Positions 36,001 through 39,000 of a stretch of 47,236 nt of DNA are shown in pieces. How positions within the stretch are numbered: position 1 is the first letter of the stretch; every line of letters begins with the position of its first letter. This stretch comes from a virus (lineage: Duplodnaviria; Heunggongvirae; Uroviricota; Caudoviricetes): the IMG/VR virus record IMGVR_UViG_2522572021_000009; one strand, given 5' to 3'. Position numbers: made by a program.

Positions 36001-39000
36001 AATCAGACCATCCGGATGTTTTCTGGTGAACAACGGCTGTGACTGCACTGTGACCGCCACACTTTCAGTTTTTATTTCTTCCTGTGTTGCGGCTTCCCGG
36101 ACTGGTAACGCAGCACCTGCTGGCTGAGGAAAGGCCTTACCATCATTTTCCGTTACCAGCGCGGCTTTCGGCTCTGCTGGTAAATTATCGCCCGGCATGC
36201 AGTAACGAAATCTACCGTTCTGATTAACGCGTGCCAGCCGCCCCGTTGCGGTTACCACCGCCAGCGTGGAAGCAACCTTGCGAGTACTGACACCGAACTT
36301 ACCCGCTATTTCTTCACAGGTTTTAGCCCCCTCCTGAGCGATAAACTCAATCATCATGTTAGCGCTAACTTTTGGAGCGACCTCTTCGGTCAGCATATCC
36401 TGTGTTTCAGATTTTACTGGCCGCTCTTCGGTTACCCGGGATTCACCTTCGACAGCCAGAAACCAGGTGTGACCCGTTTTATCAACAACGCCATTTTTTT
36501 TGAGCTCCCACAGTTCGTTGAGAACTTCTTCACGGCTGATATCAATTCGTGCCGCCAGTTCAACAGAATTGGCTTTACCCATCGCTTTCAGTGCATGCAA
36601 TACGGTTTCCATTAAAACTTCCTCCGGATAAAAATACTTCTCAAATCAGACAAAACCAGCCGCTTTCCGGCGTTCATACTCCTGTTTCAGCAACTCAATT
36701 GGCGTTGGTCCCAACGGGCGTTTTGGTGCCGCCAGTTGTCGCCGTACTGGCGGAACGCTCATCCCGTTACCAACATGCTTTGCCCATTTCGTCAGTTGCC
36801 GTTCCGCAAGTCGTTTTAACTCGCCCTGCGTCATCTGGCGCTCAATCCCTCTGGTACGCATTTCGAGGCAGATGTGGTACAGCACAGGCTGTGGCCACGG
36901 GTATTTATCACTCCCGTCGTATCGCCAAGATTCATTGCGCCAGCGCCGATACTCTTCCATCACGGCATCCACCGTAAGACCAAATGGATTTGCCCCACTC
37001 TCCGAAATCAGCGCAACAAACTCAGCCAGGTCCGGGGGCCACGTTTCACCCGCCCGGCAGCGGTCCATGCACTGACGGCACACCAGACGGATTTGCTGTT
37101 CAGTCATCGCACCAATCTGGGCAATCCAGAGCTTCGAAGGTGCGGCCCCGTTCTTCTGAGTCCAGCGGTTCGAATACACCTCCCCCATGAGCTCCCACAG
37201 CTTCCAGGCCGTTTCCGTTGCTGATAAATCCGTTGTCACGTTCCCACTGTTCGCGTGCAGCCCGGATTTCCTGAACTGCCCGTGATGCCGTGCCACCTGA
37301 TGCTGCATGGCTTCCCCCCTTGCTGACTGGTTTTACCTGTGCCCTGACGTGCTGCACGTGGCGGGCAAATTTCTGCTCCCACTGAACCTGCGTGAAAACC
37401 TTCCCCTCCGCCATCCAGTAATCCCGGAATGCGGCAAGCTCAGCAGGTGTAAATTCCGGCTCAGGCAGAGCCATACCCCACACTGCTGCCCGTTGTCGAA
37501 AATCCGGCGACGGCTGCCAGACAGTAGTCATCGAAAATTTCCCGATCGGTTCGCTCAGGCCGTCCAGGTATTCAGGTTCGGCTGTCTGCAACGGCGCACC
37601 ATTCGACTCACTGGTCGGAATACTCTCGCGCGCGTTATGTGTGGGGTTTAATTCTGTATCTGTATCTGTATCTTTATCTGTCGTGACTTGTCGTGACAGA
37701 TGCGTGACACGTCGTGACTCATCGTGACAATCAGCATTATGTTTCCGCAGCTTTTCCCGCTCCCGCTGCGCTCTCTTGCGCTCTGCCGGGGATTTTGCCG
37801 TTTGCGAAACGTTACCATTGTCCTCTTTCAGCACCTGACGTTTTTCCCATCCGGAAATAAGGTCACCATCCAGAACCCGCCCCTGCATTGCATGCAAAAT
37901 TGAATCAATTACGTCTTCCGTCACATCAAGCGCACTTGCTAAATCTTCCGTCGTGACATCAATGTGACCACGTAGTGACACGCCGTGACATGTCGTGACA
38001 TTTCGTGACGCGCTCACCAGAAGATGGATATACACTGCCATCACTGTTGCGATTGGCTGTCCTGATACCCTGGCAATCGTTCGCCACTTGGGGTCATTTG
38101 GCATGTCATGCCACAATCTGAGCCAGGCATTAGCCATACTCACCTCTTCTGATACCGAACTTTACCCACGAACTTCCGAAAGAAATCCGGTATAAATATT
38201 GTTGGTCAATGCACAACAACTGCATTACCAGGCTGACCACCACTGTTAGTCAGGGTGCCCCAGGCGATCGCTACAGCGACAAAATCATCCACATCTTTCA
38301 CCAGCCGATCCCGTCGTTCGACGATCTCCCGGTAATATTCAGAACTGTGACTGCGCATACGGGCCACCAGCAAAGGCGGCATCGCCTTTTCGATCGCCGG
38401 TAACAGCGCCTGAATTTTTTCAACCGCATCAGGCGTATCCTTCTCCACCCAGCGGAAAATTTTCTGGGTATTACGGGCCAGGGCTTCCGGATGGCTGTCG
38501 TCGTACAGTTCCGGGAACGTCATCCCAAGTTCGAAATAAGTCCGGGCTATTTCAGCTGCAGGCACTTTCTCACCATCAGGATATGCCCAGGCATTCATCG
38601 CCATGCGGATGTGTTCATGTTTGATTTTCATGAATCATTTTTCCTTTCGTTCGAGGTGTTATCCTTCTTTTTGTAAAGTTCTGGGTTCAACGATAATTTT
38701 CCCTTGGAGTATGCAACTGCTTCAGCAGCCCTCCCCTTGGGAACTATTTCGCCGGGACGCTTACGCCACATGTATATAGCTTCTCGGGTTACCCCATAAA
38801 AATCAGCGACTCTTTGGACAGAACCAAAAAACTGGACAAGTTCATCAACTCGCATTTCGCTCTCCTTAAAACTAAGTATTTTTAGATTAAAGGGTAATTT
38901 TTTTTAGGTCAATACAATCTAAAATAATTTATATTCAATTCGCGGGAGAAAATAATGGAAAGCCTTGGCATTAGGCTTAAGAAACTCAGAAAAGACAAAG

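What the first reader, a model, noticed from the sequence alone, without database searches (positions are those of the whole stretch)
37652..38008. Two GTCAC iteron arrays inside the O-like replication gene
Eleven direct repeats of GTCAC(G) at 10-11 bp helical spacing fall in two blocks about 220 bp apart, both inside the coding sequence of the O-like initiator; the first block is preceded by (TCTGTA)x3. Lambda has one iteron block in the O linker region; a second block in the N-terminal domain coding region is unusual and may mark a composite or duplicated origin.
Basis: seen in the sequence. Interest (0 to 1): 0.5.

Follow-up and report, generated by a model that had tools for sequence, protein, structure and literature searches.

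The report
Two-part replication origin inside initiator gene
The two GTCAC repeat blocks are real and are most likely the two halves of a prophage replication origin written into the gene of the protein that binds them; this split layout is old and shared by a large phage family, not a local duplication.

Summary
Eleven GTCAC cores lie on the minus strand at 10-11 bp spacing. Six are at 37953-38009 and five at 37683-37728, all inside one 347-aa gene (37100-38143, minus strand). Chance expectation is 0.39 cores (P about 5e-13).

The gene is not a lambda O homologue. It has a winged-helix N-terminal domain, a DnaT-like C-terminal domain, and is followed by a lambda-P-like loader gene.

The repeats are selected as DNA, not forced by protein. 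The 10-11 bp period puts them in all three reading frames. Synonymous positions inside the cores are 98% conserved across 23 diverged relatives, against 58% elsewhere.

Of 82 related loci, 60 carry the same motif in both zones. The motif differs between lineages (GTCACG, GCAACG, GTGACG, CGAACGC, GTAACG) but changes in both blocks together. Relatives with a different N-terminal domain lack GTCAC. A purine/A-rich tract follows the linker block in every lineage examined in detail.

Best reading: a two-part, iteron-type origin. The linker block plus the A-rich tract is the core origin, as in lambda and SPP1. The N-terminal block is an accessory array for the same initiator.

"Composite or duplicated origin" is not supported. 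Binding and firing are untested. This is a new variant of a known kind.

The parts
37100..38143 (-). Replication initiator gene. The longest ORF (GTG start) gives 347 aa; the RefSeq start is the ATG at 38137. Layout: N-terminal winged-helix domain, disordered basic linker, DnaT-like C-terminal domain.
   Evidence: ORF list. PF17948 DnaT domain at aa 203-269, 62.6 bits. PHROG 'replication initiation protein' families. 100% identical to a prophage gene of E. coli 2013C-3492 annotated as 'DnaT-like ssDNA-binding domain-containing protein'.
37952..38010 (-). N-terminal iteron array (block B): six (T)GTCAC(G) units at 10-11 bp spacing. It encodes aa 44-64 (SRNVTTCHGVSLRGHIDVTT), a low-confidence loop between helix 3 and helix 4 of the winged-helix domain.
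   Evidence: AlphaFold2 model has pLDDT <50 at residues 48-54. Kept in relatives with 3-6 copies, with a matching motif switch in other lineages. Synonymous sites are conserved.
37680..37730 (-). Linker iteron array (block A): five (T/A)GTCACG units at 10-11 bp spacing. It encodes CHDESRRVTHLSRQVTT in the disordered linker. This is the proposed core origin array.
   Evidence: A phased array of three or more copies in this zone was detected in 76 of the 82 loci surveyed, including the 11 that lack block B. Model pLDDT <50 at residues 135-164.
37648..37683 (-). Purine- and A-rich tract: GACAGATAAAGATACAGATACAGATACAGAATTAAAC, containing (GATACA)n, which reads (TCTGTA) x4.8 on the + strand. Candidate DNA unwinding element. 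It is also the recombination joint to the C-terminal half.
   Evidence: Tandem Repeats Finder. 65% A+T in 40-nt windows, where the window-wide 95th percentile is 67.5%; 72% purine in 36 nt, 97th-99th percentile. A comparable polypurine tract follows block A in every lineage inspected. Hexamer copy number varies 2-8 among close relatives. Megablast matches of relatives that share only the C-terminal half begin at gene nt 467-494.
37838..38137 (-). Coding region of the winged-helix N-terminal domain (aa 1-100), the presumed iteron reader. Block B is embedded in it.
37337..37537 (-). DnaT-like domain coding region (aa 203-269).
   Evidence: PF17948, E 2.9e-17. The NCBIfam DnaT equivalog scores 94.5 bits, below its cut-off of 201.
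36646..37308 (-). Lambda-P-like helicase loader gene. The RefSeq start is at 37107, overlapping the initiator stop codon.
   Evidence: PF06992, E 1.4e-15. phrog_109 'P-like helicase loader'. RefSeq annotation 'replication protein P'.
37920..37924 (+). Single inverted GTCAC core between the arrays, within the codons for LDVTE.
   Evidence: Kept in 23 of 27 GTCAC-class loci, but with no counterpart in the other motif classes. Its status is uncertain; it may be a protein-level constraint.

Best explanation
The region is the replication origin of a lambdoid-type E. coli prophage, written inside the gene of its own initiator.

Proposed sequence of events:
1. The initiator's N-terminal winged-helix domain binds the short direct repeats, consensus (T/A)GTCACGAC(A/G).
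2. Because the repeats are one helical turn apart, the bound protein lines up on one face of the DNA.
3. The five-unit linker array and the purine/A-rich tract immediately downstream form the core origin. This is the equivalent of lambda ori or SPP1 oriL.
4. Initiator oligomerisation there distorts the DNA and opens the tract.
5. The DnaT-like C-terminal domain and the adjacent lambda-P-like protein then bring in host DnaB.
6. The six-unit array 224 bp upstream, inside the codons of a flexible loop of the DNA-binding domain, is a second set of sites for the same protein. It most likely joins the linker array by looping or wrapping into one larger initiation complex, or tunes its assembly.

What is shown here: DNA-level selection on both arrays; co-variation of the two arrays with each other and with the N-terminal domain; and the conserved order of array, winged-helix coding region, array and purine tract.

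What is inferred: binding, looping, unwinding and helicase recruitment.
For: 1. The clustering and phasing are far beyond chance.

2. The repeats are not a protein repeat. The 10-11 bp units are read as SR, VT, CH, VS and GH in three different frames.

3. Across 23 GTCAC-class loci with under 90% nucleotide identity, third codon positions of conserved residues are 98% conserved inside the cores (n=9, in both arrays). Outside the cores the figure is 58% (n=67). Mann-Whitney P = 6e-6.

4. The two arrays co-vary. In 60 of 82 unique loci the same 5-mer forms a phased array of at least three copies in both zones. Four of the five 'discordant' loci show overlapping pieces of one motif. The motif classes are GTCACG, GCAACG, GTGACG, CGAACGC and GTAACG.

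5. The arrays co-vary with the protein domain. Relatives that keep the same C-terminal half but carry a DUF1376 or other N-terminal domain lack GTCAC. The DUF1376-type relatives carry different repeats, TGTTCAA. This is the classic lambdoid pattern, in which the N-terminal half sets origin specificity.

6. Both arrays are encoded in segments the model predicts to be disordered, where the protein can tolerate a sequence dictated by DNA.

7. Copy number changes in frame-preserving steps of 21 bp.

8. A purine/A-rich tract follows the linker array in all lineages inspected.

9. The gene context is a lambdoid replication module: CI, Cro, a YdaT/cII-like gene, the initiator, then a P-like loader.

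10. Characterised precedents place iterons plus an AT-rich unwinding element inside the initiator gene: lambda and Stx phages (PMC7466680) and SPP1 oriL (PMC5737612, PMC6316719).
Against: - No binding, unwinding or replication data exist for this family in anything I could find.
- The A-rich tract is only moderately A+T-rich (65-72%).
- Eleven of 82 relatives have the linker array only, so the N-terminal array is not indispensable for the family.
- The spacing between the arrays varies among lineages, roughly 150-240 bp, with no obvious conserved helical phase. This weakens a rigid looping model.
- Matching motifs could in part be maintained by gene conversion between the arrays.
- I could not identify specificity-determining residues in the winged helix.
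Confidence: 0.72

Rival explanations
1. The N-terminal array is a control element rather than part of the firing origin. Initiator bound there would titrate the protein, pair with the linker array to inhibit firing (handcuffing, as with RK2, P1 or F iteron clusters), or obstruct transcription of its own gene (autoregulation).
For: - It has the same motif as the linker array, so presumably the same binder.
- It is dispensable in 11 of 82 relatives.
- Only the linker array is next to the A-rich tract.
- Iteron plasmids are known, from general knowledge, to use extra clusters for control.
Against: A lytic or induced phage origin has little obvious need for negative copy control. Nothing in the sequence separates this reading from a positive, cooperative role. 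It overlaps with the best explanation rather than excluding it.
Confidence: 0.25
2. The N-terminal array has no function of its own. It is kept similar to the linker array by slippage and gene conversion, and is tolerated because it lies in a flexible loop.
For: - The loop is predicted to be disordered.
- Copy number drifts.
- Some lineages lack the array.
Against: - Synonymous positions in the N-terminal cores are 87-100% conserved across diverged genera.
- The array persists across several bacterial classes and through at least four motif switches.
Confidence: 0.1
3. The arrays are bound by some other factor, either a host protein or another phage protein, and not by the initiator encoded here.
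For: No binding data exist. The motif classes share an ACG(C) end, which could suggest a common partner.
Against: - The motif changes with the N-terminal domain lineage, and vanishes when that domain is replaced while the C-terminal half and neighbouring genes stay the same.
- The hosts range from E. coli to Ralstonia and Sphingomonas.
Confidence: 0.07
4. One reading: a composite or recently duplicated origin in this prophage.
For: There are two blocks of the same repeat about 220 bp apart.
Against: - The same two-zone layout is present in 60 of 82 loci from distant hosts and free phages, with lineage-specific motifs.
- The DNA between the blocks encodes the conserved winged-helix core and is not duplicated.
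Confidence: 0.04
5. The repeats are a by-product of a conserved repetitive peptide motif.
For: The peptides SRNVT..RGH..VT and CH..SR.VT are conserved in the GTCAC class.
Against: - The period is not a multiple of three and three reading frames are used.
- Synonymous sites are fixed.
- Other classes have different peptides but keep DNA phasing.
- The peptide segments are predicted to be disordered.
Confidence: 0.02

Closest known systems
Lambda ori / O protein (and Stx-phage variants with six iterons)
   Same: - The origin lies inside the initiator gene, with iterons followed by an A+T-rich tract (PMC7466680).
- The N-terminal half of the protein goes with the iterons, and the C-terminal half goes with the downstream P-type loader.
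- The gene order is CI, Cro, cII-like gene, initiator, P.
   Different: - There is no sequence homology to O; PF04492 gives no hit.
- The units here are about 10-bp direct repeats packed head to tail, one per helical turn. Lambda's iterons are four to six longer sites, about 19 bp with internal symmetry by general knowledge.
- There are two arrays, one of them inside the DNA-binding domain's own coding region.
SPP1 G38P replisome organizer and oriL
   Same: - The initiator has no AAA+ domain.
- oriL is embedded in gene 38 as direct repeats plus an AT-rich unwinding element, and is followed by loader and helicase genes (PMC5737612, PMC6316719).
- NCBI labels this family 'phage replisome organizer'.
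- One relative carries the G38P-type C-terminal domain PF09524.
   Different: - There is no detectable sequence similarity between the N-terminal domains (hhalign probability 0.1%).
- SPP1's repeats form one central cluster at gene nt ~360-450.
- SPP1's second G38P-binding site, oriR, is kilobases away in an intergenic region, not in the same gene.
Iteron replicons with two clusters (RK2 oriV, P1 incC/incA, F incB/incC, P4 ori/crr) - from general knowledge
   Same: Two separate clusters of the same initiator-binding repeat. One is next to the unwinding element. The other is used for looping or pairing, or for control.
   Different: - Those clusters are intergenic or flank the rep gene, and their units are 17-22 bp.
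- Here both clusters are coding and about 225 bp apart, with 10-bp units.
- No functional data exist for this family.
Rac-type YdaU (DUF1376 + DnaT-like) initiators
   Same: - The C-terminal half is about 84-97% identical, with the same purine tract and the same P-like partner.
   Different: They have a different N-terminal domain and different repeats, TGTTCAA, mainly in the linker. This shows that the N-terminal domain and its iterons are exchanged as one module.

Membership tests
Lambda O family (Pfam PF04492 Phage_rep_O) | N-terminal domain homologous to lambda O | tested here: not met
   No PF04492 hit at E<=0.01 for this protein, or at E<=1 for 13 family members.
Lambda O family (Pfam PF04492 Phage_rep_O) | Origin (iterons plus an A+T-rich tract) in the middle of the initiator gene, followed by a P-type loader gene | tested here: met
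   Linker array plus purine/A-rich tract at 37648-37730. PF06992 P-like gene downstream. This is functional analogy only.
SPP1 G38P-type replisome organizer (PF09681 N-terminal / PF09524 C-terminal) | Sequence homology to G38P domains | tested here: not met
   No PF09681 or PF09524 hit in this protein. hhalign of the family profile against G38P gives probability 0.1%. G38P itself hits only PF09524. The NCBI name 'phage replisome organizer' appears on close relatives.
SPP1 G38P-type replisome organizer (PF09681 N-terminal / PF09524 C-terminal) | Direct repeats plus an AT-rich unwinding element embedded in the organizer gene | tested here: met
   SPP1 layout taken from PMC5737612.
DnaD-like winged-helix N-terminal domain | Fold match to the DnaD N-terminal domain | tested here: inconclusive
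DnaT (primosomal protein I) | DnaT DNA-binding domain present, and full-length equivalence to DnaT | tested here: inconclusive
   Domain PF17948 passes its cut-off (62.6 against 25 bits). The NCBIfam equivalog NF002770 fails (94.5 against 201 bits). The protein therefore shares a domain with DnaT but is not DnaT.
Iteron-type replication origin | Three or more direct repeats in one orientation with helical spacing, under DNA-level selection | tested here: met
Iteron-type replication origin | Adjacent easily melted A+T-rich element | tested here: inconclusive
   65% A+T in 40-nt windows, about the 90th-95th percentile of the window, and 72% purine. It is conserved in position across lineages, but the A+T content is modest.
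Iteron-type replication origin | Specific binding by the cognate initiator, and origin activity | not testable with these tools
   Only indirect evidence: the motif co-varies with the N-terminal domain and between the two arrays.
Two-cluster iteron origins (RK2, P1, F, P4 type) | A second cluster of the same iteron acting through looping, pairing or control | not testable with these tools
   The second cluster with the same motif is shown. Its action is unknown.

The most novel reading that the evidence does not exclude
The family uses an obligatorily two-part origin. Initiator molecules on the N-terminal and linker arrays pair in cis, looping the roughly 225 bp that encode the winged-helix core, to open the purine tract.

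The binding sites and the domain that reads them then form one self-contained module of under 500 bp that can be swapped between phages.

The module's specificity would be re-set by concerted changes of both arrays. A natural intermediate may be caught in L170, where the N-terminal zone carries two motif types.
Probability: 0.3. Interest if true: 0.65.

Novelty: new variant of a known kind. Interest (0 to 1): 0.5.

Why it matters
Origins embedded in initiator genes are textbook material for lambda and SPP1. This large initiator family has no characterised origin, although it is present in roughly a quarter of complete E. coli genomes at the DNA level, including O157:H7 and other STEC prophages, and in many other Proteobacteria.

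The comparative data give a ready-made, testable map of the origin. They also define a natural series of at least five initiator/iteron specificities for studying how origin recognition evolves.

The region is also a clear case of cis-acting DNA sites dictating the amino-acid sequence of a loop inside the very domain that presumably reads them.

There are practical uses. Prophage origins of this type could be annotated, replication compatibility between co-resident prophages could be predicted, and mini-replicons could be designed.

Tried and rejected
- **Specificity residues:** a mutual-information scan for winged-helix residues that track the motif class. The top columns were the residues encoded by the iterons themselves, plus a stretch at aa 107-115 that follows phylogeny rather than motif. 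No conclusion could be drawn.
- **Inverted core:** I tested whether the inverted core between the arrays co-varies with the motif class. It does not, being kept only in the GTCAC class.
- **Foldseek against PDB:** only weak winged-helix hits, all E>0.1.
- **Sequence search of PDB with the family profile:** only the DnaT C-terminal domain, at E 0.24.
- **Rfam on 37000-38900:** no RNA family at E<=1.
- **Plasmid collection:** 11 hits, mostly prophages on large replicons or phage genomes filed as plasmids. This is uninformative about autonomous replication.
- **Literature searches:** no description of iterons in this family. The Eru-type paper on Stx phage replication regions does not mention iterons or origins. 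The library lacks most subscription-journal papers, for example Weigel and Seitz 2006, so prior description cannot be excluded.
- **First viral-contig scan:** it returned only near-identical E. coli loci. These were useful only for copy-number variation.
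Full report
**1. The observation**

The window between 37652 and 38010 contains 11 GTCAC cores, all on the minus strand.
- Six lie at 37953-38009, with spacings of 10, 10, 10, 11 and 11 bp.
- Five lie at 37683-37728, with spacings of 10, 10, 11 and 10 bp.
- Nine of the 11 continue as GTCACG.

Read on the coding strand, the unit is (T/A)GTCACGAC(A/G). Tandem Repeats Finder reports both period-10 arrays and a (TCTGTA) x4.8 run at 37653-37681.

From the rest of the window, 0.39 cores are expected in 357 nt of one strand; Poisson P(>=11) is 5e-13. No other phased array of three or more copies exists in the 47 kb.

**2. The gene and its context**

Both arrays lie in the ORF 37100-38143 on the minus strand, 347 aa. 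The neighbouring genes are:

| Position relative to the initiator | Window coordinates (strand) | Gene | Evidence |
|---|---|---|---|
| Upstream | 38955-39599 (+) | CI-type repressor | |
| Upstream | 38628-38855 (-) | Cro (PF14549) | |
| Upstream | 38206-38631 (-) | YdaT/cII-like gene (PF06254; phrog_163 'CII-like') | |
| Downstream | 36646-37308 (-) | lambda-P-like loader (PF06992; phrog_109) | |

The initiator gene sequence (37100-38143) is 100% identical to a prophage gene of E. coli 2013C-3492. Matches to it occur in 1,267 of 5,426 complete E. coli genomes, 658 of them over at least 80% of the gene, including O157:H7.

The protein has a DnaT-like domain at aa 203-269 (PF17948). It has no Pfam hit in its first 170 residues. 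In particular, neither the lambda O domain nor the SPP1-type N-terminal domain is found.

The gene is therefore 'O-like' in position and presumed role, but not in ancestry.

**3. The repeats are selected as DNA, not as protein**

A 10-11 bp period cannot arise from a peptide repeat. The cores are translated in all three frames:
- TCA-CG as Ser-Arg
- GTC-AC as Val-Thr
- (T)GT-CAC as Cys-His or Gly-His

Both arrays code for segments that the model leaves unstructured. Block B falls in the 46-62 loop (pLDDT <50 at residues 48-54). Block A and the tract after it fall in residues 135-164.

I compared 23 GTCAC-class loci from different genera, all under 90% nucleotide identity to one another. The third positions of conserved residues are 98% conserved inside the cores (nine sites, six in the N-terminal array and three in the linker array). 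At 67 comparable sites elsewhere the figure is 58%. Mann-Whitney P = 6e-6.

**4. Comparative evidence**

I gathered relatives from four sources:
- E. coli genomes and GenBank phages
- IMG/VR viral contigs
- one genome per species of GTDB
- a protein search that found about 1,100 homologues of the N-terminal domain, many labelled 'phage replisome organizer' by NCBI

I searched two zones independently for phased 5-mer arrays of at least three copies: nt 90-260 and nt 270-640 from the start codon. Results for 82 unique loci:

| Outcome | Loci |
|---|---|
| Identical 5-mer array in both zones | 60 |
| Scored 'discordant' | 5 |
| Linker array only | 11 |
| N-terminal-zone array only | 3 |
| No array found | 3 |

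Of the five 'discordant' loci, four show overlapping pieces of one longer motif, for example CGAAC against AACGC of CGAACGC. The fifth is L170, described in section 9.

The motif is lineage-specific:

| Motif | Where found |
|---|---|
| GTCACG | E. coli, Aeromonas phage pAEv1818, Pseudomonas Detrevirus phages, Bordetella, Chromobacterium and others |
| GCAACG | Ralstonia phage Firinga and relatives |
| GTGACG(C) | three viral contigs |
| CGAACGC | many Beta- and Alphaproteobacterial and Acidobacteria-type loci |
| GTAACG(C) | Enterobacter, Pantoea, Marinobacter, Sphingomonas |

Whatever the motif, it is the same in both arrays of a locus.

Conversely, some relatives keep the same C-terminal half at 84-97% identity but carry a DUF1376 or other N-terminal domain. 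These have no GTCAC arrays. The DUF1376-type relatives have TGTTCAA repeats instead. Their similarity to the window starts at gene nt 467-494, just after the last linker unit.

The N-terminal domain and both arrays therefore travel, and change, as one unit. The C-terminal domain is interchangeable: DnaT-like, PF09524 or others.

**5. The tract after the linker array**

In the window this tract is GACAGATAAAGATACAGATACAGATACAGAATTAAAC.
- It is 65% A+T in 40-nt windows, where the window mean is 48% and the 95th percentile is 67.5%.
- It is 72% purine on the coding strand.

A comparable polypurine, A-rich tract of 30-45 nt follows the linker array in every lineage I inspected, for example AGATAAGAGAAGAAGAGATAA. 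It is there whatever the motif or the C-terminal domain, and it is translated into different peptides such as DKDTDTDTE and REEEIREEE. Hexamer copy number varies from 2 to 8 among close E. coli relatives. This is the expected place and character for a DNA unwinding element, although its A+T content is modest.

**6. Mechanism proposed**

Shown here:
- There are two arrays of the same short direct repeat, one per helical turn, all in one orientation.
- Both are under DNA-level selection.
- They co-vary with each other and with the winged-helix domain.
- They are followed by a conserved purine/A-rich tract and a P-type loader gene.

Inferred:
- The initiator's N-terminal domain binds each unit, forming a protein array on one face of the DNA.
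- The linker array plus the tract is the core origin. It is the part detected in nearly all family members (76 of 82 loci) and the part that matches lambda ori (PMC7466680) and SPP1 oriL (PMC5737612, PMC6316719).
- The N-terminal array is an accessory set of sites. It joins the complex by looping or wrapping the intervening 224 bp, or it modulates assembly.
- The DnaT-like domain and the P-like protein then load host DnaB on the opened tract.

The 11 relatives without the N-terminal array show that it is not essential to the family as a whole. The variable inter-array distance argues against a rigid geometry.

**7. Rival explanations**

- *Control element* (titration, handcuffing or autoregulation): cannot be separated from a positive accessory role with sequence data alone.
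- *No function, kept alike by gene conversion:* hard to square with the synonymous-site conservation and the age of the layout.
- *Binding by another factor:* conflicts with the co-variation with the N-terminal domain across very different hosts.
- *Recent duplication or composite origin, and a protein-motif artefact:* both contradicted by the data above.

**8. Comparison with known systems**

The region works like the lambda and SPP1 type of origin, embedded in the initiator gene. It is not a member of either protein family: Pfam and profile tests were negative. It differs in three ways:
- The units are short and tightly packed.
- There is a second array.
- That second array is placed inside the coding region of the DNA-binding domain itself.

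Two clusters of one iteron are known from plasmids and P4 (general knowledge). Those clusters are non-coding and have longer units.

I found no paper describing iterons or an origin for this family. The library is incomplete, so prior description, for example in the 2006 review of phage replication modules, cannot be ruled out. I therefore rate it a new variant of a known kind, of moderate interest.

**9. Other observations**

- Two IMG/VR contigs carry a sixth 10-bp unit in the linker array, which frameshifts the gene. The in-frame length differences seen between relatives are 21 bp, equal to two units.
- L170 has two motif types in its N-terminal zone, and only the newer one in its linker zone.
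- L139 has an enlarged N-terminal array with inverted copies.
- L134 has units at 5-bp spacing.
- An inverted core between the arrays is kept only in the GTCAC class.

Noticed in passing
L054 and L056 (IMG/VR E. coli contigs), linker array, about nt 455-470 of the gene: A sixth 10-bp GTCACG unit is present and shifts the reading frame (...QVTTSHDR*). Slippage of the iterons can therefore inactivate the initiator gene.
   Followed up: partly
L170 (MAG Pseudomonadota JBCCAC010000001), gene nt ~120-170 and 338-379: The N-terminal zone carries CGAACGC x3 followed by GTGACGC x2. The linker zone carries GTGACGC-type units only. This may be an intermediate in a change of iteron specificity.
   Followed up: partly
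L139 (Pseudomonas sp. JAI111) and L134 (Erwinia phyllosphaerae), N-terminal zone: L139 has an enlarged N-terminal array that includes three inverted copies (GTGACA). L134 has GTCACG units overlapping at 5-bp spacing in both zones.
   Followed up: no
L011 and L012 (Rac-SA53 ydaU and an E. coli DUF1376-type gene), gene nt ~300-430: DUF1376-type initiators share the window's C-terminal half. They carry TGTTCAA(AC) repeats, direct and inverted, in the linker. These are followed by the same (GATACA)n tract, which is where similarity to the window begins.
   Followed up: partly
window 37920-37924 (+ strand): A single inverted GTCAC core lies between the arrays, in the codons for LDVTE. It is kept in 23 of 27 GTCAC-class loci (the family consensus CGTGACA is the exact reverse complement of TGTCACG). 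The other motif classes have no equivalent.
   Followed up: yes
window 37653-37681: The (GATACA)/(TCTGTA) hexamer run varies from 2 to 8 copies among near-identical E. coli prophages. This changes the length of the acidic DT/DK linker in the protein.
   Followed up: partly
window 36646-37308 (-): The longest ORF of the P-like gene (220 aa) overlaps the initiator gene by about 200 nt in another frame. RefSeq annotates a shorter 153-aa product starting at 37107. Which start is used is unknown.
   Followed up: no
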